43,543 bases of DNA from Parcubacteria group bacterium GW2011_GWB1_45_10 (GCA_001001185.1 LCKC01000006.1:1-43543); one strand, 5' to 3'; counted from the stretch's first letter, positions 3,805 to 36,615 are shown. The notes: generated by a model not told the origin, from the sequence alone. A program made the numbers and translations.

Positions 3805-3816
3805 GATGTGGGTATT

Positions 3817-3850
3817 GGCCACGTGGTGAAGTAGCTAACACGGCGGTCTG
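3817..3850 (+). pseudogene. truncated 5' half of tRNA-Cys (nt 1-34 only)
   Basis: Identical to 4128-4161. It diverges after anticodon nt G34, and no 3' half follows. Confidence 0.8.
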
Positions 3851-3890: not shown

Positions 3891-4145
3891 ATGAAATATT
3901 GCGTTTATGTTCTACGAAGTTTAAGGAATGACGATATTTACGTCGGAAGCACAGAAAACATAGAAAAAAGAATCTCCTTACATAATGCGGGAAAAGTCAG
4001 ATCGACGAAACCAAACAGACCATGGAAACTTTTGGAACATTATGAGTATAATTCAAGAAGCGAAGCTGTAAAACAAGAAGGGTTCTTGAAAACACATCAA
4101 CAGAAAGAGATGATTAAAAGAACGTTTGGCCACGTGGTGAAGTAG
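3891..4145 (+). CDS. GIY-YIG nuclease family protein (small URI/YhbQ-like)
   Basis: 84 aa. YCVYVLRS...IYVGST(x)N...R...HN is the GIY-YIG core. The last six codons and the TAG overlap the 5' end of tRNA-Cys. Confidence 0.85.
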   Translation: MKYCVYVLRSLRNDDIYVGSTENIEKRISLHNAGKVRSTKPNRPWKLLEHYEYNSRSEAVKQEGFLKTHQQKEMIKRTFGHVVK

Positions 4146-4200
4146 CTAACACGGCGGTCTGCAAAACCGCTATTCACCGGTGCAAATCCGGTCGTGGCCT
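4128..4200 (+). tRNA. tRNA-Cys (GCA)
   Basis: Acceptor GGCCACG/CGTGGCC, anticodon arm GCGGT-CTGCAAA-ACCGC, T arm ACCGG-TGCAAAT-CCGGT (unusual G at position 55). CCA is not encoded. Confidence 0.85.
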
Positions 4201-4215
4201 CAGGCAGACGCAATC

Positions 4216-8831: not shown

Positions 8832-9378
8832 TGTCTGTTTGTTTGATTAAATCAACCAAGCGTTGGTTCAGTGTTTCAAACTCCGGCAAATCTTTTTGAT
8901 TTGCCAAACCAAGCAGCTTCAAAAGTTCAAAAGACGGCTGGTACAAAAACGACAGACCCGACTTTTCTCTTTGGACCAAGCCCCTCATCAGCAAAGACCT
9001 TAAAATATAACTGGAGTTGACGCCGCGGATAAAATCAATTTCCGGACGCGAAATCGGCGCCCGATAAAGAATAATCGTCAAAACCTCAAGGCTTGAAGGC
9101 GTCAGGTCTTCTTCGGTGTCCTGACCCAAAAACTTTTCCAGGTAAGGATGATTTTCCGGTCTGGCGCCAAGCTGGATCTCTGTCTCGGTTCTGAGCAAAA
9201 CCAAACCCGAACTCGGGTTATTTGAAATTTTATCATGATATTCGGAAATCAGCTCTTTGAGCGCGACTTCCGAAAGATTCATTAATTCGCCGAGTTTTTT
9301 CACGGCTAACGGCTCGCCGTAAGCAAAAAGAATTGATTCAAGGATTGAAATTCGTTTTTGTTTTTCTTCGTCGGTCAT
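8812..9378 (-). CDS. scpB: segregation and condensation protein B
   Basis: 188 aa. Contains ILESILFAYGEPL and a winged-helix pattern, and lies downstream of scpA. Confidence 0.9.
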   Translation of the reverse strand: MTDEEKQKRISILESILFAYGEPLAVKKLGELMNLSEVALKELISEYHDKISNNPSSGLVLLRTETEIQLGARPENHPYLEKFLGQDTEEDLTPSSLEVLTIILYRAPISRPEIDFIRGVNSSYILRSLLMRGLVQREKSGLSFLYQPSFELLKLLGLANQKDLPEFETLNQRLVDLIKQTDNGEGQL

Positions 9379-10079
9379 GGCTGGTGGAGTTTCATTATTT
9401 TTATTTCACCAAAATCTTTAGCCTGCGAGAGCATGATGTTTTTTTCGCGGAACAGGAACAAAACCGCCAGAAAATTGATAATCACGTCAATCTTTTTCAT
9501 TGAACCGCCGGCAAGCGTATTAAAGCTCAAAACGGCCCGCGACTCGATTTTCAGAATAATTTCTTTGATTCTTTCTTCAACCGAAACCACCCGTTCAAGA
9601 TAACCGGACACTTTCGGAAGCAAAAACTTTTCCAAGGACAAAGACAGCTTTTTAAAAGCCTCAACCAGGCTTTCCAGGTCCAGGCGCTTGGGCGGTGAAA
9701 AAACCGGCTCCCGGCCCTGCCAAAGCTCTCTGGTAAAAATGCGGCTCTTGTTTGCCAAAATCTCTTTGACGATTTTGGCCTGATTTTTATACCGCCGATA
9801 CTCTTGCATCGCGTTTTCCAGGTCTTTTATCTCCGCTTCCTCTTCCTCGGTCAGATCAAGCATCGGCAAAAGTGTTTTTGATTTTATCAAAAGCAGGCGC
9901 GAAGCAACAACCAAAAAATCCGCCAGCTCGTTCGGGCTAAACTCCTGCTGGCTGATAATTTCCAGATATTGGTCAGTGACCTCGGCCAAAGCCACTTCGC
10001 AGATATCAAGTTTTTGCTGTTCAATCAGCTCAAGCAAAAGATCCAGCGGCCCTTCAAATTTTTCAATTTTTATCTTCAT
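9375..10079 (-). CDS. scpA: segregation and condensation protein A
   Basis: 234 aa with the FEGPLDLLLELIEQQKLDI N-terminus. Confidence 0.9.
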   Translation of the reverse strand: MKIKIEKFEGPLDLLLELIEQQKLDICEVALAEVTDQYLEIISQQEFSPNELADFLVVASRLLLIKSKTLLPMLDLTEEEEAEIKDLENAMQEYRRYKNQAKIVKEILANKSRIFTRELWQGREPVFSPPKRLDLESLVEAFKKLSLSLEKFLLPKVSGYLERVVSVEERIKEIILKIESRAVLSFNTLAGGSMKKIDVIINFLAVLFLFREKNIMLSQAKDFGEIKIMKLHQP

Positions 10080-10173
10080 CCCGTTAGAAGTTCCGGAATG
10101 ACCGTTTAATTGAACATTCGAATAAAGTTTTTGTTTGTTTTGCTAATAACATATCAAAGAATAACGATTACTT
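10075..10173. repeat. 99-bp leader element, copy A (identical to 12930-13028)
   Basis: Base-by-base identity over 99 nt. It contains ATCCCGTTAGAA at the scpA start and overlaps the 3' end of secA. Confidence 0.95.
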
Positions 10174-12586
10174 TGATAAGCCTTCCCAAGCTCAAAAAAA
10201 TGTTCCAGGAAAAATTGTCCAGAAGCTCTTTGAACATTTTATGGCCTTCATGCTTGTATTCAGAGATTGGCTGATGCTGAGCGTAATTTCTCAACCTGAC
10301 GGTGTCGGTTAAGTGTTCCATTGCCTCAAGGTGGTCTGTCCAAAGAATGTCCATAATCTGGAGCAGTCCGACTCTCAAAAACTCCGGGTCTTTCATCTCG
10401 GTTTTTTCAAAGAAAAACTTGGCGACCGATTGTTTCAGACTTTCGGGAGAATCAAACTCGTTTTTCAGACTTTGTGACAGATTAGTCAATGAATCAAGTT
10501 CACGCCAAACCGCATCTTTGTCAAAAGTTTCGCGAACCCGGCTTGAAATAAACAGCTCAAGAGCTTCGTCAATGGTTTTTTTCATAATTTCCTTCAGCTT
10601 TCCGCTATCGGCCGCCAAAATCTCTTTTCGCTTCCGGTAAATGGCATCTCTTTGCTTGTTCAAAACATCGTCATATTCAAGAATGTATTTTCTGGTGTCA
10701 AAGTTCGCGCCTTCAACCTTTTGCTGGGCTGAATCAAGCGCCTTGGAAACAAACTCGCTTTCAATCGGCTGGTCTTCAGGAAGCTTTAATCTCTGAATCA
10801 AACCGCGGATTTTGTCCGAACCGAAGATTCTCATCAAGTCGTCTTCCAAAGAAACAAAAAAAGAGGTTGAACCCGGATCGCCTTGGCGGCCGGAACGCCC
10901 GCGGAGCTGATTGTCAATTCTTCTGGCTTCGTGCCTTTCCGTGCCAATGACGTGAAGTCCGCCAAGACTTTTTATCAAATCTGATTCTTCGGCGGTTGAA
11001 GGATTGCCGCCCAGGATAATGTCCACGCCGCGGCCAGCCATGTTCGTCGCCACCGTGACTGCGCCTTTTTTGCCGGCTTGGGCAATCACCTCGGCTTCTT
11101 TTTCGTGCTGCTTGGCGTTTAAAACATTATGAGAGACACCCTGTCTTTTGAGCAAAGCTGACAGATGCTCGTTTTTTTCAATCGAAACCGTGCCGATTAA
11201 AACCGGCTGGCCTTTTTCATGCTTGTCTTTAACTTCTTTTACCAGCCAGTCAAACTTCGCTTTTTCCGTGACAAAAATCTTGTCGGAAAAATCCTTCCTG
11301 ACCAAAGGCTTATTCGGCGGAATCGGCAAAACATCCAGAAAATAAACCTTGGCAAACTCTTCACTTGAGGTCAGGGCCGTGCCGGTCATGCCGGAAAGAA
11401 TCTGATACATCCTGAAGTAATTCTGAATCGTGATGGTTGCTGAGGTCCGTGACTCTTCCTGGACGCGCAAGCCTTCTTTGGCTTCAATCGCTTGGTGCAG
11501 GCCGCCCGAATACCTCCGGCCGTGCATCAACCTGCCGGTGAACTCGTCGACAATGACGACTTCGCCGTCTTTGACAACGTAATTTTTGTCCCGCTTGAAC
11601 AAAAAATAAGCTTTCAAAGACTCTTCAAGGTGGTGAACCAAAACCAGATTATTGTCTTCGTAAATATCCCGGCCAAAAAGATCTTTGATTCTTTCAATCC
11701 CGGAATCCGTCAAAAACACAGAGTGCTTTTTTTCGTCAATCTCAACGTCTTTTTCCGCGTTCAAGCGGGGAACCGCCAAGGCAAACTCCCGATAAATCTT
11801 GGCGGCGTCCATGTCGGGCGAAGCAATAATCAAAGGCGTTCGGGCTTCGTCAATCAAAATACTGTCAACTTCGTCAATAATCGCAAAATAAAGCTCGCGC
11901 TGGGCCAGGTCGTCTTTCCGGTAAACCAAATTGTCTCTGAGGTAATCAAAACCGAACTGATGGTTGGTGCCATAGACAATCTCGGCCTGATAAACTTCTC
12001 TTCTTGAAACCGGCCTCAAAAAATCGTGAAAAACTTTGAAGCTGCCCAAGCTATCTCTTTGCCTGTCTTCCTGGGGTTCGCTCTTCCACTCGGGGTCGTA
12101 CAAAAAAGAGTTTTCATGGATCAAGCAGCCGACTTTGAGTCCCAAGAAGTGATAGATCTGTCCCATCCAAACCGTGTCACGCTGAGCCAGATAATCATTG
12201 ACCGTAATGATATGAACGCCCTTGCCGGTCAGGCCGTGAAGATAAGCCGGCAGGGTCGCGGCCAAAGTTTTGCCTTCGCCGGTTTTCATTTCCGCAATCT
12301 TCCCCTGGCTCAAAACCGCGCCGCCGACAATCTGCGAATCAAAATGTCTCTGGTTCAAAGTTCTTTTGGCGGCTTCCCTGACCAAAGCAAAAGCTTCCGG
12401 CATGAGCGTTTCCAGAGATTCGTTTTCCGCCCTTGCCTTCAACTCAAGGCTTTTTGCCTGAATCGCTTTGGCATCAAGCGAAGAAAAATCTTTTTCCAGT
12501 TCATTAACCGACTTAACCAAAGGCAAGAGCTTTTCAATCGCTTTTTGATTTGCGTCTTTAAAAATTGTTTTGAAAACTTTCAGCAC
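10154..12586 (-). CDS. secA: preprotein translocase ATPase SecA (no C-terminal Zn-finger tail)
   Basis: 810 aa. Motifs MKTGEGKTL, DEVDSILIDEARTPLIIS and TNMAGRGVDI. The GTG start abuts the hpf stop codon. Confidence 0.97.
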   Translation of the reverse strand: MLKVFKTIFKDANQKAIEKLLPLVKSVNELEKDFSSLDAKAIQAKSLELKARAENESLETLMPEAFALVREAAKRTLNQRHFDSQIVGGAVLSQGKIAEMKTGEGKTLAATLPAYLHGLTGKGVHIITVNDYLAQRDTVWMGQIYHFLGLKVGCLIHENSFLYDPEWKSEPQEDRQRDSLGSFKVFHDFLRPVSRREVYQAEIVYGTNHQFGFDYLRDNLVYRKDDLAQRELYFAIIDEVDSILIDEARTPLIIASPDMDAAKIYREFALAVPRLNAEKDVEIDEKKHSVFLTDSGIERIKDLFGRDIYEDNNLVLVHHLEESLKAYFLFKRDKNYVVKDGEVVIVDEFTGRLMHGRRYSGGLHQAIEAKEGLRVQEESRTSATITIQNYFRMYQILSGMTGTALTSSEEFAKVYFLDVLPIPPNKPLVRKDFSDKIFVTEKAKFDWLVKEVKDKHEKGQPVLIGTVSIEKNEHLSALLKRQGVSHNVLNAKQHEKEAEVIAQAGKKGAVTVATNMAGRGVDIILGGNPSTAEESDLIKSLGGLHVIGTERHEARRIDNQLRGRSGRQGDPGSTSFFVSLEDDLMRIFGSDKIRGLIQRLKLPEDQPIESEFVSKALDSAQQKVEGANFDTRKYILEYDDVLNKQRDAIYRKRKEILAADSGKLKEIMKKTIDEALELFISSRVRETFDKDAVWRELDSLTNLSQSLKNEFDSPESLKQSVAKFFFEKTEMKDPEFLRVGLLQIMDILWTDHLEAMEHLTDTVRLRNYAQHQPISEYKHEGHKMFKELLDNFSWNIFLSLGRLIKVIVIL

Positions 12587-12934
12587 TTATTTGGATTCTT
12601 TCAGCCGGCGAGCCTTGTCCCTTGACCCAACCAAAGATTTTTCTTTTTCGGTTTTCAGCTGCCTCAAAATCTCTGATTCAACCACATCAATCAAGGCGTA
12701 AACATCCTCGCCTTTTTCCTGGCTGCGGATTATTTTTGCCGGCAGGTAAAGGTTCAAAACCAGCTCCAGTCTTTCGCCTTCGCGGCGATGGGAGATTCTT
12801 GAGATGGAGACGTTAAATAAAAAGTTTTTGCCGAACCTTTTGGCGAACTTTTCAATCTTTTCAAGCTTTAAGTTCAGGTAGCTGCGGATCTGCGACGTGA
12901 GCGTAAAATCATTGCTTGAAATTTGAAGTTTCAT
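12587..12934 (-). CDS. hpf: ribosome hibernation promoting factor / RaiA family
   Basis: 115 aa, S30AE-like fold pattern, conserved position upstream of secA. Confidence 0.8.
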   Translation of the reverse strand: MKLQISSNDFTLTSQIRSYLNLKLEKIEKFAKRFGKNFLFNVSISRISHRREGERLELVLNLYLPAKIIRSQEKGEDVYALIDVVESEILRQLKTEKEKSLVGSRDKARRLKESK

Positions 12935-13028
12935 CCCGTTAGAAGTTCCGGAATGACCGTTTAATTGAACATTCGAATAAAGTTTTTGTTTGTTTTGCTA
13001 ATAACATATCAAAGAATAACGATTACTT
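12930..13028. repeat. 99-bp leader element, copy B
   Basis: Identical to 10075-10173 at an offset of 2855 bp. It is followed by a decayed distal arm, TTCGGGAC (13027-13034). Confidence 0.95.
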
Positions 13029-13051
13029 CGGGACTGGGTTAAGTGCTGAAA

Positions 13052-13174
13052 CTATCTTCTCTTGGCAGCTTTTCTTCTTCTTTTCGGGGCTGCCTTTTTC
13101 GCGGCTTTCTTGGCCGGGCGCCTTCTTTTTGGCGCCGCTTTTTTCGCCGCCGCTTTTCTTCTTCTTACGGGCAT
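13052..13174 (-). CDS. 40-aa Lys/Arg/Ala-repeat basic protein (histone H1-like composition)
   Basis: From the ATG at 13174: MPVRRRKAAAKKAAPKRRRPAKKAAKKAAPKRRRKAAKRR*, with KKAAPKRRR occurring twice. A putative promoter lies upstream. The TTG-extended 64-aa version is less likely. Confidence 0.45.
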   Translation of the reverse strand: MPVRRRKAAAKKAAPKRRRPAKKAAKKAAPKRRRKAAKRR

Positions 13175-13278
13175 GGTTTTGAATTTTTTAATTGATAAAC
13201 GCCGACCGATCCCGCCTTGCGAAGACTGAACGTTTACCACTGACAAACTTGGGAACCGAATTAATAACTTATATCTTA

Positions 13279-18464: not shown

Positions 18465-18926
18465 TTAAAACGGCGGATTGTCTTCCACTGGCCCGTCTTC
18501 CGGCAGATCAATCACCGGGATATCTTCCTGGCTGGATTTTGGCAGTTCCTGGGAAAACTCGTTTTTTGAGCCGGCAAAACTGTCCTGCTCAAAACCGCCG
18601 GCTTTCGGTCCAAACTGGACTCTTTCGGCAATGACCTCTGTCCGGTATTTTCTTTCGCCTGACGGCGCGTCCCAAGACCGGGTTTTTATCCTGCCTTCAA
18701 TCATCAAAAGTTTTCCTTTTTGGACATATTGCTTGCAGATCTCGGCTTGCCTGCCCCAGACAACCACGTTGTGAAACTCGGTTTCTTCCTGCTTCTGCCC
18801 CATTTTATCGTTCCAAACGCGGTTGGTCGCCAAAGGAAAACTGGCGACTGACTGACCTTGCGGCGTGGTTCTCAGCTCAATCTCTTTGACGACGCGGCCG
18901 ATTAAAAAAACTTTATTAAGATTCAT
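18465..18926 (-). CDS. ssb: single-stranded DNA-binding protein
   Basis: 153 aa. OB-fold N-terminus (MNLNKVFLIGRV) and an acidic C-terminal tip ending in PPF. Confidence 0.95.
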   Translation of the reverse strand: MNLNKVFLIGRVVKEIELRTTPQGQSVASFPLATNRVWNDKMGQKQEETEFHNVVVWGRQAEICKQYVQKGKLLMIEGRIKTRSWDAPSGERKYRTEVIAERVQFGPKAGGFEQDSFAGSKNEFSQELPKSSQEDIPVIDLPEDGPVEDNPPF

Positions 18927-19040
18927 CCCGTTAGAAATTTGAGAAAGTTAATTGTTTATTCGCAGAAACCGAGACGACAGTCGGCTTCGCCTTTATTATA
19001 AAAAAGACTCGCTTGTTTGTATTTGAATTTCTAACGGGAT
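18925..19040. repeat. leader element, rpsF-ssb junction copy (15-bp inverted arms, 86-nt loop)
   Basis: ATCCCGTTAGAAATT (18925-18939) is the exact reverse complement of AATTTCTAACGGGAT (19026-19040). The interior shares TTAATTG..ATTCG and TTGTTTGT blocks with the 99-bp copies. Confidence 0.85.
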
Positions 19041-19456
19041 TCATTGTCTAAAATTTCTTTTAGTTTCGTGTCCAGGACTTCTTCTGAAACCTGAACTCTT
19101 TCTTCCTGACGCGGCTCTTTCTGGAAAGACTCGATTTTTCTTGTCAAAGTCCTGAGTTTTCTGATTTTTTTCGGCTTTTTCAGCTCAAAAATCATTTTTC
19201 TCAAAATATTCGGCTCGTACTGCAAAGCTTTTCTGACTCCTTCAACGCTGGTTGAAGCGCCGGAAAACTGAAGTTCGCCCCAAAAACCGGTCTTTTGCTT
19301 TTTTATCGGATAAGCCAGGCTCCGCTTTTCCAGAGTTTTTTCCGTAAGAATTGAGCCGCCCGAATTAAGAATTGCTTGCCTGATTTTTTCTTGGTCTTCA
19401 AGAGGCAGGCTGTCTGTGCCCAGATCTTTCAGCCAAAAACAAATTTCATATTCCAT
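19031..19456 (-). CDS. rpsF: 30S ribosomal protein S6 with C-terminal extension
   Basis: 141 aa. MEYEICFWL..., the standard rpsF-ssb-rpsR gene order, and a charged C-terminal tail. Confidence 0.9.
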   Translation of the reverse strand: MEYEICFWLKDLGTDSLPLEDQEKIRQAILNSGGSILTEKTLEKRSLAYPIKKQKTGFWGELQFSGASTSVEGVRKALQYEPNILRKMIFELKKPKKIRKLRTLTRKIESFQKEPRQEERVQVSEEVLDTKLKEILDNESR

Positions 19457-35290: not shown

Positions 35291-36568
35291 TTAAAAAAGA
35301 GACTTTTGTGTTGTCAGACTTTCGCGTTCGCCATCACCAAAAATGCTGATTTTGCCGTACTCGCCGTCATAGCCCGGCTCAAGCCTAACCTTACCCTGGC
35401 GAATGCGAATGACTGCTTCGGCAATCTGCGGCAAAAGATTTTGTTTTAAATCAGACTCTTTCATTTCAAGCAAAACATACAATTCCGGCGCAACGCTTTT
35501 GACGATTTCTTCGTACTGAAACCAGACGCCCTTGGTGTTTTTGCTGACACCTAAGGCATCGGCAATAATCTCGTCAAAAGGCACGGTGCTCAAGTATGAT
35601 TTTGCCCATGAGGGCTTGAATCCCTGCGGTCTTGATTTATCGGCCAGTTCATCAACTCTGGCCATGACCCCGACAGTCACGGGCTTGCCGCATTTCGGAC
35701 AAAGACCTTTATTATTTTTCGTTTCTTCCGGCGACAAGCTGGTTTTGCACGCCGCGTGGCCGTCGTAATGGTACCGGCCTTCTTCAGGAAACATTTCCAC
35801 GGTGCCAAAAAGCCGGTTGTCTCTGGTTTTCAAAGCTTGCATCATCTCAAAATAAGACAGCTCGCAGTCAAACACTGTCGCTTCCCGGCCGATTCGCGGC
35901 AAAGAATGCGAATCAGAACTGGAAATAATCGCTTTGTTATCCAAAAACGGAATGCGCCAGTTCATCTCCGGGCTTGAAGACAACCCGGTTTCAATGGCAA
36001 AAATCTGCGGTTCCAGCTCGTCAAAACATTCCCGCAAAGAATCAAACCCGGATTTTGAACCGAAGACGCCGAACCACGGCGTCCAGACATGAGCCGGAAT
36101 CAAAGCGCAGTCTTTGTCAGTTTCCAATAAAATCTTGAACAGCTCTTTTGAATCAATACCGATAATCGGTCGGCCGTCAGACGCCAGCTTGCCGACCCAG
36201 GAAAGTTTGGCATTGATTTTTTCCACATCTTCAATCGTCGGCGCGTAAACCAGATGATGGACCCTTCTGACGCGGCCGTTTTTTGAATAAATGCAGGAAA
36301 TTTCGCCGGACAGAACAAACCTGGTTTTTTCCTGGTCAAAAGGCTGTTTTGAATCGCAGAACTTTTTTTTCAGCTTGAACAAACCTGGTTCTGCCGGCTC
36401 TAATTTGTTTTTAATCTCGGAAAACCAAGTTGGGTGAGTGAAGTCGCCGGTGCCAAGAACTTGCAGGCCCTTTTTAACACCCCACAAAGCCAGGTTTTCC
36501 AAAACCATCTGCGGGCTGACGGCCCGGGCGTATTTTGAATGAATCTCAATGTCGGCGTAAAACTTCAT
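35291..36568 (-). CDS. endonuclease Q-like PHP-domain protein
   Basis: 425 aa. The N-terminus is ADIEIHSKYARAVS...LGTGDFTHPTWF. It also has a C-terminal Zn-finger, CPKCGKPVTVGVMARVDELA. Confidence 0.7.
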   Translation of the reverse strand: MKFYADIEIHSKYARAVSPQMVLENLALWGVKKGLQVLGTGDFTHPTWFSEIKNKLEPAEPGLFKLKKKFCDSKQPFDQEKTRFVLSGEISCIYSKNGRVRRVHHLVYAPTIEDVEKINAKLSWVGKLASDGRPIIGIDSKELFKILLETDKDCALIPAHVWTPWFGVFGSKSGFDSLRECFDELEPQIFAIETGLSSSPEMNWRIPFLDNKAIISSSDSHSLPRIGREATVFDCELSYFEMMQALKTRDNRLFGTVEMFPEEGRYHYDGHAACKTSLSPEETKNNKGLCPKCGKPVTVGVMARVDELADKSRPQGFKPSWAKSYLSTVPFDEIIADALGVSKNTKGVWFQYEEIVKSVAPELYVLLEMKESDLKQNLLPQIAEAVIRIRQGKVRLEPGYDGEYGKISIFGDGERESLTTQKSLF

Positions 36569-36615
36569 CCCGTTAGAATAACATATATAAAAATAACGAC
36601 TACTTCTAACGGGAT
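36567..36615. repeat. leader element, minimal copy (12-bp inverted arms, 25-nt loop)
   Basis: ATCCCGTTAGAA (36567-36578) and TTCTAACGGGAT (36604-36615). The left arm overlaps the ATG of the EndoQ-like gene. Confidence 0.85.

What the first reader, a model, noticed from the sequence alone, without database searches (positions are those of the whole stretch)
10075..13028. 99-bp perfect direct repeat brackets hpf-secA and encodes the last codons and stop of secA
10075-10173 and 12930-13028 are identical at all 99 positions, at an offset of 2855 bp. In minus-strand sense each copy ends in TTCTAACGGGATG, where the ATG is the start of scpA (10079) or hpf (12934). The other end of copy A is coding: the last five secA codons (VIVIL) and the TGA lie inside the repeat. 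This suggests the short SecA C-terminus, which lacks a Zn-finger tail, was created by insertion of the element. Perfect identity implies recent transposition or gene conversion, or possibly an assembly collapse. Recombination between the copies would delete two important genes.
Basis: seen in the sequence. Interest (0 to 1): 0.7.

Follow-up and report, generated by a model that had tools for sequence, protein, structure and literature searches.

The report
Start-codon palindromic mobile element, assembler-clipped
The two identical 99-bp stretches are real copies of a small hairpin-forming mobile DNA element that sits on the start codons of hpf and scpA in a groundwater Parcubacterium. Their 99-bp length and the odd SecA tail are most likely assembly artefacts, and the element belongs to a large, apparently undescribed family spread across candidate-phyla bacteria.

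Summary
The repeat is in the window exactly as described: 10075-10173 equals 12930-13028, 99/99. Seven other assemblies of the same organism (Parcubacteria GW2011_GWC1_45_9-like) span both copies, match the window over about 20 kb with 0-13 mismatches, and show a longer unit of 113 bp. In all seven, SecA reads through to ...LISAESNNESR*. The window lacks 29 and 77 nt just left of the two copies. A second assembly of the same series lacks different amounts at the same two sites. All four junctions restart at the last 99 nt of the unit, which is maxK-1 for IDBA-UD run at k=100. So the 99-bp boundary, the KVIVIL tail and the lost hpf promoter are most likely join artefacts.

The true unit is TCCCGTTAGAAGT...ACTTCTAACGGGA, flanked by a TGAA duplication and inserted at A|TGAA of a start codon. 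The same 11-nt ends bracket 37-97 nt of unrelated sequence at 120 or more sites in many Patescibacteria classes and some other phyla. In 105 of the 130 instances read, the final A completes the ATG of a real ORF, and 73 of those 105 carry a 4-5-nt duplication. Relatives without the element at secA-scpA have the same short SecA with no Zn finger, so the element did not create it. One near-identical strain carries a different interior at the hpf site, so the perfect identity reflects a recent copy.

The parts
10075..10173 (-). Copy A of element E113: the last 99 nt of the true 113-nt unit. It comprises the interior, the right arm ACTTCTAACGGGA and the duplicated TGAA. It lies immediately 5' of scpA, and its final A forms the scpA ATG (10077-10079).
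   Evidence: Searches show 99/99 identity. Searches show the full 113-nt form in L001-L007. One search confirms 113 nt identical.
12930..13028 (-). Copy B of E113, also the last 99 nt of the true unit, immediately 5' of hpf (ATG 12932-12934).
10173..10174 (.). Junction where 29 nt are missing (minus-sense GCGCTGAATCAAACAATGAATCCCGTTAG). The missing piece holds the true SecA end SAESNNESR*, the left TGAA duplication and the first 9 nt (TCCCGTTAG) of the left arm. Probable faulty contig join.
   Evidence: One search shows a second IDBA-UD assembly with a different left end and the same right end. Searches give maxk 100 and maxK-1 contig overlaps.
13028..13029 (.). Junction where 77 nt are missing. 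The missing piece holds the 3' half of the upstream terminator hairpin, the hpf promoter TTGCGA-17-TAAAAT, the original ATGAA and the first 9 nt (TCCCGTTAG) of the left arm. Probable faulty contig join.
10154..12586 (-). secA, 810 aa as written in the window. The last 17 nt plus the TGA (10154-10173) read into the element interior and give ...GRLIKVIVIL*. The seven other assemblies that span the secA 3' end read ...GRLISAESNNESR*, with the TAG stop inside the left arm; SecA is 813 aa in six of them and 806 aa in L007, which has an internal 7-aa gap.
12587..12934 (-). hpf (Ribosomal_S30AE, 115 aa). Its ATG is formed by the element's final A plus the duplicated TG.
9375..10079 (-). scpA (SMC_ScpA, 234 aa). 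Its ATG is formed in the same way.
13029..13040 (-). The remaining 5' half (AACCCAGTCCCG) of the terminator hairpin of the upstream 64-aa basic-protein gene (13052-13246).
   Evidence: One search shows the complete 13-bp-stem terminator in L001.
18925..19040 (-). A complete sister element with a different interior of 92 nt, lying between rpsF and ssb. The arms are ATCCCGTTAGAAATT / AATTTCTAACGGGAT and the duplication is TGAA. S6 ends DNESR* in the left arm and ssb starts at the right arm.
   Evidence: I2; z -5.2.
36567..36615 (-). A short sister element with a 25-nt interior related to the first ~30 nt of the E113 interior. It lies between tRNA-Arg and the ATG of a 425-aa ORF (35291-36568).

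Best explanation
Shown: the two repeats are copies of one small non-coding palindromic element, which I call E113. The true unit is 113 nt of identity. It consists of a 105-nt element, TCCCGTTAGAAGT-[79 nt]-ACTTCTAACGGGA, with 13-nt perfect inverted ends (14 bp counting the flanking A-T pair), plus a 4-nt duplication (TGAA) on each side.

Shown: the element sits at A|TGAA of a start codon. The duplication together with the element's last A rebuilds ATGAA for the downstream gene. The old ATGAA stays on the far side. Where the upstream gene used to overlap the start, as secA and rpsF did, its frame now runs into the left arm and stops at the arm's TAG.

Shown: E113 belongs to a very large family. 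The ends are conserved, the interiors are unrelated, and the total length is 59-119 nt (the limits of the scan). The family occurs in many Patescibacteria classes and a few other phyla, and it lies mostly on start codons. About a third of the sites sit at the +1 of leaderless-type promoters, as at hpf.

[quoted passage not shown] Interiors at an occupied site are also swapped by recombination between the shared arms. This would explain why the hpf copy is a perfect twin of the scpA copy while one strain and a sister species keep another interior there. In RNA the arms should form a 13-15-bp stem that holds the A and U of the start codon, so the element probably lowers or modulates translation, or creates a processing site.

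Strongly inferred: in this window both copies lost their left arm and adjacent unique DNA through faulty joining of IDBA-UD contigs that begin with the maxK-1 = 99-nt overlap. This created the 99-bp boundary and the SecA KVIVIL tail, and removed the hpf promoter.
For: Repeat and family in the window. The motif occurs 6 times against 0.5-0.8 expected.

Other assemblies: seven assemblies that span both copies show 113-nt copies and SecA ending ...NNESR*.

Artefact: the window's SecA is unique to its own contig. Assembly LCJX01000010 has other left ends (..CCCGG| and ..GGCCATA|, giving SecA ...HEGHKVIVIL*) but the same right end. The Rifle 2011 groundwater series was assembled with IDBA-UD -maxk 100 (PMC4736985). 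IDBA_UD contigs broken at repeats share maxK-1 ends (bioRxiv 10.1101/2023.05.30.542503).

Family: at least 120 loci carry both 11-nt ends. In 105 of 130 instances an ORF of 50 or more codons starts at the rebuilt ATG in exactly one orientation. Among those 105, a 4-nt duplication occurs in 69 and a 5-nt one in 4, and the far flank reads A(84%) T(76%) G(74%) R R. Arm positions 12 and 13 are complementary in 98% and 92% of elements although their sequence varies. Predicted stems have z-scores of -3.2 to -5.2.

Presence and absence: L130 has no element at either site. L211 has a variant element in the scpA/scpB ATGA overlap, which is empty in the window.

Turnover at the hpf site.

Leaderless context. 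In 23 of 74 cases the far ATG lies 6-7 nt after a -10-like hexamer, against about 3-4 per other position.
Against: No transposase or other autonomous partner with these ends was found. No pair of arms further apart than about 120 nt occurs in 0.87 Mb of fetched loci.

Identical ends in distant phyla combined with unrelated interiors is unusual for MITEs. It could instead reflect a conserved host function.

The duplication is missing or shorter in about 30% of cases.

The artefact model does not explain why the left-hand contigs stop 15-81 nt before the repeat rather than inside it, or why no Ns were placed at the joins. I had no reads to check.

No expression data exist, so the RNA stem and its effect are predictions. 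E113 itself contains no sigma-70-like promoter.
Confidence: 0.75

Rival explanations
1. The missing 29 and 77 nt are real deletions in a subpopulation. For example, breakage at a specific point in the left arm (TTAG|AAGT) could be followed by one-sided loss. This would remove the start-codon-sequestering stem and give a real SecA ...KVIVIL.
For: De Bruijn assemblers do not normally invent junctions, and there are no Ns at the joins. Four junctions share one endpoint, which a site-specific nuclease could also produce. Loss of the left arm would free the start codons.
Against: The shared endpoint is exactly 99 nt from the end of the unit, which is maxK-1 for the assembler settings used on this sample series. 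The junctions occur only in the two IDBA-UD assemblies. None of the seven other assemblies that span both copies of the same population has them, and those match the window with 0-13 mismatches over about 20 kb. The 77-nt loss removes the hpf-secA promoter and half a terminator. The SecA variants of 810 and 788 aa are each found on a single contig.
Confidence: 0.1
2. The arms are primarily a host cis-regulatory RNA device, not a selfish element. A conserved stem would sequester the AUG, couple translation from the upstream stop (UAG in the left arm) to the downstream start, or mark an RNase III processing site. Interiors would be free to vary.
For: The ends are conserved in sequence across phyla while interiors are unrelated. 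Positions 12 and 13 covary. Polarity relative to the gene is fixed, and a third, right-arm-like motif is enriched next to the left arm (16/105 against 2.9 expected), which would allow alternative pairing. An element has persisted at the hpf start in four species with four different interiors. Stop and start codons are embedded in the arms.
Against: The flanking 4-nt duplications covary with the target (TGAA, TGAG, TGGA, TGCG and others). There are near-identical multi-copy sets within genomes, nested insertions, and empty orthologous sites. These are signatures of insertion, not of an evolved leader. The downstream genes form no regulon. No Rfam family matches. This reading is compatible with later co-option of a mobile element.
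Confidence: 0.3
3. The repeat is an ordinary local duplication or gene conversion of a promoter or leader segment between two operon starts. No dedicated element is involved.
For: There are only two perfect copies in the window, both 5' of genes.
Against: The same ends with other interiors occur at two more sites in the window and at 120 or more loci in other phyla, with target duplications. No sigma-70-like promoter lies inside E113.
Confidence: 0.03
4. The element is a site for a site-specific recombinase. It could be an integron attC-like cassette boundary, or an invertible promoter flanked by inverted repeats.
For: It has imperfect palindromes of 60-120 nt with conserved ends and variable centres lying between ORFs. 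GTTAGAA / TTCTAAC resembles GTTRRRY / RYYYAAC at 6 of 7 positions (from sequence, and from my knowledge of attC). The interiors swap at a fixed site.
Against: The order of the core motifs is the reverse of attC. The flanking genes are syntenic housekeeping genes, not cassettes. The interior has one fixed orientation in all nine assemblies that carry the hpf-side site and across the family, and no inverted version was found. The variable 4-nt duplications do not fit conservative site-specific recombination.
Confidence: 0.03

Closest known systems
Bacterial MITEs, especially Neisseria Correia elements (CREE/NEMIS); also ERIC/IRU and RUP (from my knowledge)
   Same: They are about 100-150 nt long and non-coding. 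They have terminal inverted repeats and a short target duplication, occur in many copies, and are often next to gene starts and co-transcribed. Their ends fold into a hairpin in the mRNA, and in Correia elements that hairpin is cut by RNase III. They show presence/absence polymorphism between strains.
   Different: Here the duplication is 4 nt (TGRR) rather than TA. The insertion point is the start codon itself, and the ATG is rebuilt from the element's last base. The same 11-13-nt ends occur in many phyla with unrelated interiors. No parent insertion sequence is known.
Mycobacterial interspersed repetitive units (MIRU) (from my knowledge)
   Same: They are short repeats placed between genes of an operon, so that the stop of the upstream gene and the start of the downstream gene lie in or overlap the repeat.
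   Different: MIRUs are tandem direct repeats that carry small ORFs. They are not hairpins with inverted ends, and no target duplication has been described.
Rickettsia palindromic elements (RPE) (from my knowledge)
   Same: They are small palindromic mobile repeats that tolerate positions touching coding sequence and can add a few residues to proteins.
   Different: RPEs insert in frame inside genes. The present family sits at the gene boundary and only replaces the last few codons of an overlapping upstream gene.
REP/REPIN elements moved by RAYT transposases (from my knowledge)
   Same: They are abundant extragenic hairpin-forming repeats, and some are built as inverted doublets of about 100 nt.
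   Different: Each REP is itself a palindrome with a GTAG head and lies mostly 3' of genes. The arms here are not self-complementary, lie 5' of genes, and are flanked by target duplications.
IDBA-UD contig-end overlaps of maxK-1 (COBRA preprint)
   Same: The window's repeat length (99) and the common restart point of four junctions equal maxK-1 for -maxk 100.
   Different: Such overlaps normally mark contig ends. Here the contigs were joined with loss of sequence and without Ns.

Membership tests
MITE (miniature inverted-repeat transposable element) | Small size (under about 600 bp) and no coding capacity | tested here: met
   The units are 59-119 nt (the limits of the scan) and E113 is 105 nt. 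The longest frame in E113 is a 14-codon frame from the far ATG.
MITE (miniature inverted-repeat transposable element) | Terminal inverted repeats | tested here: met
   E113 has 13-nt perfect ends, or 14 bp with the flanking A-T pair. Family-wide, 11 nt are fixed by the search, and positions 12 and 13 are complementary in 98% and 92% of elements.
MITE (miniature inverted-repeat transposable element) | Target-site duplication of fixed length | tested here: met
   Of 105 oriented elements, 69 have a 4-nt direct repeat and 4 have a 5-nt one. The repeat varies with the site (TGAA 40, TGAG 12, TGGA 11, TGCG 3 and others). It is shorter or absent in 32. Non-ATG targets such as TAAA and CTAA also occur.
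MITE (miniature inverted-repeat transposable element) | Several near-identical copies per genome | tested here: met
   There are two identical E113 copies plus a related short one within 43.5 kb. Near-identical pairs occur in L080 and L079. Whole-genome counts were not obtainable.
MITE (miniature inverted-repeat transposable element) | Presence/absence at orthologous sites | tested here: met
   The secA-scpA and hpf sites are empty in L130. The scpA/scpB overlap is filled in L211 and empty in the window. A strain-level difference exists at hpf (L006).
MITE (miniature inverted-repeat transposable element) | A related autonomous insertion sequence with the same ends that encodes the transposase | tested here: inconclusive
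   No arm pairs lie more than about 120 nt apart in 0.87 Mb of fetched loci. The collections could not be scanned for long gaps.
Correia-type element | TA duplication, about 26-nt ends, IHF site, RNase III cleavage of the transcript hairpin | tested here: not met
   The duplication is TGRR and the ends are 13 nt. IHF binding and RNase III cleavage cannot be tested with these tools.
REP/REPIN | Each unit is a self-complementary REP with a GTAG head, lies 3' of genes, and is linked to a RAYT gene | tested here: not met
   The arms are not self-complementary. The elements lie 5' of ORFs in 105 of 130 cases. RAYT genes were not searched for.
Integron attC site | RYYYAAC ... GTTRRRY in that order, in an array of promoterless cassettes next to intI | tested here: not met
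   The core-like motifs are in the reverse order. The neighbours are syntenic housekeeping genes.
Invertible promoter (inverton) | The same interior found in both orientations between the inverted repeats | tested here: not met
   The orientation is the same in all nine assemblies that carry the hpf-side site, and polarity is fixed across the family. Reverse-complement alignments gave no signal.
Described structured RNA (Rfam 15) | A match to a curated covariance model | tested here: not met
   Only tRNAs matched in the window at gathering score. No credible hit appeared on eight element-bearing loci at E<=1.
SecA with C-terminal Zn-finger (SEC-C, PF02810) | SEC-C motif at the C-terminus | tested here: not met
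   The motif is absent from this SecA and from all relatives at 66% identity or more, with or without an element downstream. It is present only in some homologues at 62% identity or less.

The most novel reading that the evidence does not exclude
The conserved arms may be more than transposon ends. They could be a portable translation device used across the candidate phyla radiation. The element lands on the first five bases of a gene, often a leaderless one, and duplicates AUGRR. Its stem then brings the old 5'-terminal AUG next to the rebuilt AUG. Ribosomes that load at the mRNA 5' end, or that terminate at the UAG in the left arm, could then be handed to the true start. A third arm-like motif could switch the stem on or off. 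The insertion would then be nearly silent, or regulatory. This would explain why identical ends persist in distant phyla while the interiors turn over.
Probability: 0.12. Interest if true: 0.85.

Novelty: new variant of a known kind. Interest (0 to 1): 0.55.

Why it matters
There are three practical consequences.

1. A deposited contig of a much-used CPR (candidate phyla radiation) reference set carries two silent joins. These remove a promoter and rewrite the C-terminus of SecA. A sister assembly has the same fault. A perfect repeat of length maxK-1 is a simple flag for such joins.

2. The underlying element appears to belong to an undescribed, very widespread family of hairpin elements in Patescibacteria. 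They sit on start codons, rebuild the ATG, and donate stop codons to upstream genes. This affects gene calling, protein C-termini, and start-site and leader prediction in thousands of metagenome-assembled genomes.

3. If the hairpin affects translation of leaderless and coupled genes, it would be a general layer of gene-expression control in organisms that cannot yet be grown alone. It would also offer a natural marker for strain tracking.

Tried and rejected
- **Rfam:** a gathering-score scan of the window and an E<=1 scan of eight element-bearing loci gave no family.
- **Literature:** searches for the arm sequence and for MITEs or palindromic repeats in CPR, Patescibacteria or Saccharibacteria found nothing relevant. 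Nature 2015 (doi 10.1038/nature14486) is not held.
- **Inversion of the interior between strains:** forward and reverse-complement alignments of the four interiors showed no inverted homology.
- **A shared regulon:** the downstream genes are diverse housekeeping genes, so I rejected an operator-site reading. The variable arm spacing of 25-92 nt also argues against it.
- **Autonomous partner:** there are no distant arm pairs in the fetched loci.
- **Metagenome scan with the SecA C-terminus:** It returned only distant relatives plus one useful locus, L130. As a result I could not search metagenomes for the two short junctions.
- **Exact look-ups of the 810-aa SecA:** not on record as a called gene elsewhere. 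Later it was found only as the window's own contig.
- **Microhomology at the deletion ends:** none beyond 1 nt (from sequence), so replication slippage does not explain them.
- **Viral contigs:** two hits for the two-arm pattern and none for the E113 interior, so there is no sign of a phage vector.
- **Wobble-pair asymmetry as a test of RNA versus DNA selection:** too few cases to say.


Full report
**1. The observation**

Window positions 10075-10173 and 12930-13028 are identical at all 99 positions, 2855 nt apart. The flanks differ from the first base on each side. All genes here are on the minus strand. In order they are: a 64-aa basic ORF (13246..13052), copy B, hpf (12934..12587), secA (12586..10154), copy A, scpA (10079..9375) and scpB (Pfam). 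Each copy ends in TTCTAACGGGATG at a start codon. The 13-mer also precedes two other start codons (18924, 36566). It occurs inverted a short way upstream of each (19029, 36604). That makes six hits against 0.8 expected. The core CCCGTTAG occurs six times against 0.5 expected. The repeat is therefore one member of a set of hairpin-like units in this window.

**2. The same locus in other assemblies**

The exact hpf protein is found on 17 contigs from independent groundwater assemblies: ENA MEGAHIT k127 and k141, JGI, and an NCBI UBA genome. Seven of the fetched loci (L001-L007) span both repeat sites. They match the window over about 20 kb with 0-13 mismatches. L003 is 100% identical over 9831 nt.

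Every one of these seven has 29 more nt left of copy A and 77 more nt left of copy B. With these restored, the repeat is 113 nt: ATGAA-TCCCGTTAGAAGT...ACTTCTAACGGGA-TGAA. SecA then reads through to ...GRLISAESNNESR, with its TAG inside the left arm. It is 813 aa in six of the seven and 806 aa in L007, which has an internal 7-aa gap. The extra 77 nt contain the 3' half of a 13-bp-stem terminator and a TTGCGA-17-TAAAAT promoter. The -10 box of that promoter ends 6 nt before the far ATG.

**3. Why the window's form is most likely an artefact**

- The window is a whole 43,543-nt NCBI contig. Its 810-aa SecA occurs on that contig only.
- The organism is Parcubacteria group bacterium GW2011_GWC1_45_9-like.
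- A second assembly of that series (LCJX01000010, locus L214) has SecA of 788 aa ending ...HEGHKVIVIL. At both sites its left break points differ from the window's (..CCCAGTCCCGG| and ..GAAGGCCATA|). Its right break point is the same, namely the first base of the 99-mer.
- So four junctions in two assemblies all restart exactly 99 nt before the end of a 113-nt repeat.
- A paper on the same Rifle 2011 groundwater series gives the assembly command as IDBA-UD -step 20 -maxk 100 -mink 40 with 150-bp reads (PMC4736985).
- IDBA_UD contigs broken at repeats share end sequences of maxK-1 (bioRxiv 10.1101/2023.05.30.542503). That is 99 nt here.
- Assemblers run with k=127 or 141, longer than the repeat, read straight through.

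I conclude that three features were produced when contigs beginning with the 99-nt overlap were joined to shortened upstream contigs without Ns. These features are the 99-bp boundary, the KVIVIL tail, and the missing left arms with the promoter. I put this at about 85-90%.

Two points remain unexplained. The upstream contigs stop 15-81 nt short of the repeat. I also had no reads to map.

**4. What the element is**

In RNA or single-stranded DNA the arms pair as a 12-15-bp stem around the interior. The z-scores are -3.2 to -5.2 against shuffles.

I scanned one genome per species for TCCCGTTAGAA-N37-97-TTCTAACGGGA. Hits came from Nomura-, Kerfeld-, Yanofsky-, Doudna-, Kaiser-, Jorgensen-, Vogel- and Levyibacteria, Saccharibacteria and Paceibacterota. 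A few came from Omnitrophota, Planctomycetota and WOR-3 genomes.

I read 130 instances and found the following.

- **Interiors and lengths.** Interiors are unrelated between genomes but nearly identical within some genomes.
- **Start codons.** In 105 of 130 instances an ORF of 50 or more codons begins at the ATG made of the element's last A plus the next two bases. This holds in exactly one orientation.
- **Target duplication.** The four bases after the element are repeated before it in 69 of these 105, and five bases in 4 more. The repeat changes from site to site (TGAA, TGAG, TGGA, TGCG and others). The far flank reads A T G R R at 84, 76 and 74% for the first three positions.
- **Other targets.** Non-start targets exist. 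One is TAAA in a hairpin loop. Another is CTAA inside another element's arm.
- **Arm pairing.** Arm positions 12 and 13 differ between elements (AT, GC, GT, AA and others) but stay complementary in 98% and 92% of cases.

These are the marks of insertion with a 4-bp staggered cut at A|TGRR.

Orthologous sites agree with this.

- A related species (L130, SecA 72% identical) has no element at either site and only 9 nt between secA and scpA.
- Another relative (L211) has a variant element (TCCCACACTTA...TAAGTGTGGGA, duplication TGAA) in the scpA/scpB ATGA overlap. That overlap is empty in the window.

The downstream genes are diverse housekeeping genes, including dnaA, atpA, topA, tRNA synthetases, ssb, hpf, secG and ribosomal proteins. 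This is not a regulon.

In 23 of 74 cases the far ATG lies 6-7 nt after a -10-like hexamer, against about 3-4 at other spacings. Shine-Dalgarno-like motifs are not enriched. Many targets are therefore the +1 to +5 positions of leaderless genes, as at hpf. Others are stop/start overlaps inside operons, as at rpsF-ssb and secA-scpA.

**5. Why the two copies are identical**

At the hpf start an element is present in four species, always just after the TAAAAT promoter, but with different interiors. One strain of the window's own population (L006) differs by three substitutions across the ~11 kb it shares with the window. It has another interior there (EL6). EL6 is the one shared with the 77%-identical species L211. 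E113 at hpf is therefore a recent replacement. The most likely mechanism is recombination or gene conversion through the shared arms, using the scpA-side copy or another copy as donor. A fresh insertion after loss is the alternative.

**6. SecA**

All close relatives have short tails after ...GR: IVNPSR, TISSPNA, NINPPSA, MINEPRKVTD. None has a SEC-C domain. SEC-C appears only in some homologues at 62% identity or less. The element did not create the short SecA. In the true sequence it replaces only the last few codons: the final ESR and the stop are read from the duplicated target and the left arm. Removing the element and one TGAA gives a predicted ancestral end ...SNNEDKN*, overlapping scpA by 17 nt (inference).

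**7. How it probably works**

- **Shown:** the structure, the target, the duplication, the rebuilt ATG, the donated stop codon, the polymorphism and the wide distribution.
- **Inferred:** movement by an unidentified enzyme acting on the 13-nt ends, and cassette exchange through the arms. Also inferred is a transcript stem that includes the A and U of the start codon and so lowers or modulates initiation, or creates an RNase III site.
- **An alternative pairing.** An internal right-arm-like motif close to the left arm is enriched: 16 of 105 against 2.9 expected. The mirror motif is not enriched. This suggests an alternative pairing that would free the start codon.
- **Promoter.** No sigma-70-like promoter lies inside E113. 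scpA is probably read through from hpf-secA, and hpf from the promoter that the window has lost.

**8. Comparison and novelty**

The closest known kinds are bacterial MITEs, above all the Correia elements of Neisseria. Most defining features of a MITE are met. The parent transposase was not found. Four things differ from described families: the 4-nt TGRR duplication, insertion on the start codon with reconstruction of the ATG, identical ends across phyla with unrelated interiors, and turnover of interiors at fixed sites. Rfam and the literature held here have no match. I rate it a new variant of a known kind.

**9. Verdict**

The finding as written rests partly on an assembly fault, and its SecA inference is wrong. 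The repeat is nonetheless real. It led to a widespread, apparently undescribed element family that matters for annotation and possibly for translation control in CPR bacteria. Interest 0.55.

Noticed in passing
window 3815-3850 and 4126-4161, with ORF 3891-4145 (+): A perfect 36-nt direct repeat equals the 5' half of tRNA-Cys (4128-4201). It brackets an 84-aa GIY-YIG nuclease ORF (Pfam E 2.9e-15). This looks like a small homing-type nuclease gene inserted at the tRNA-Cys gene, with duplication of the tRNA 5' part.
   Followed up: partly
window 18925-19040 (between rpsF 19456..19031 and ssb 18926..18465): A complete sister element with 15-nt perfect arms and a 92-nt unrelated interior. S6 ends DNESR* in the left arm, the same NESR* as true SecA. 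Without the element, rpsF would overlap ssb by 11 nt.
   Followed up: yes
window 36567-36615: A 49-nt mini-element between tRNA-Arg and a 425-aa ORF that matches no Pfam family. Its interior is about 80% identical to the first 30 nt of the E113 interior. Its far flank reads ATAAA rather than ATGAA.
   Followed up: partly
L211 7190-7345 (related species, scpA/scpB junction): A variant of the family with different inner arm sequence (TCCCACACTTA...TAAGTGTGGGA), the same outer TCCC...GGGA and a TGAA duplication. The exact-arm scan therefore under-counts the family.
   Followed up: partly
P0011 (Parcubacteria GW2011_GWB1_41_4 SecA, 789 aa) versus P0008-P0010 (813 aa): Another assembly of the same series lacks 24 internal residues (PLIISAPDVDAAKIYREFAKIAPR). 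This is relative to three other assemblies of what appears to be the same organism. It is possibly a further silent join of the same kind.
   Followed up: no
L007 (JGI 3300025012), secA: A 7-aa in-frame gap (FVSKALD) in an otherwise identical SecA of 806 aa. I cannot tell whether it is a real variant or an assembly fault.
   Followed up: no
window 13052-13246 (-): A 64-aa extremely basic ORF rich in K, R, A and P (..KKAAPKRRRPAKKAAKKAAPKRRRK..), with its own promoter-like site and terminator. It is conserved upstream of hpf in L130 and L211 and matches no Pfam family. It may be a histone-H1-like DNA-binding protein.
   Followed up: no
L013, L030, L045, L093 and similar loci (G+C-rich units of 62-78 nt): A sub-class has two G+C-rich internal hairpins and a TTGA duplication. 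In several, a long ORF continues in frame on the far side, so some may sit inside coding sequence or just before ATG rather than on it.
   Followed up: no
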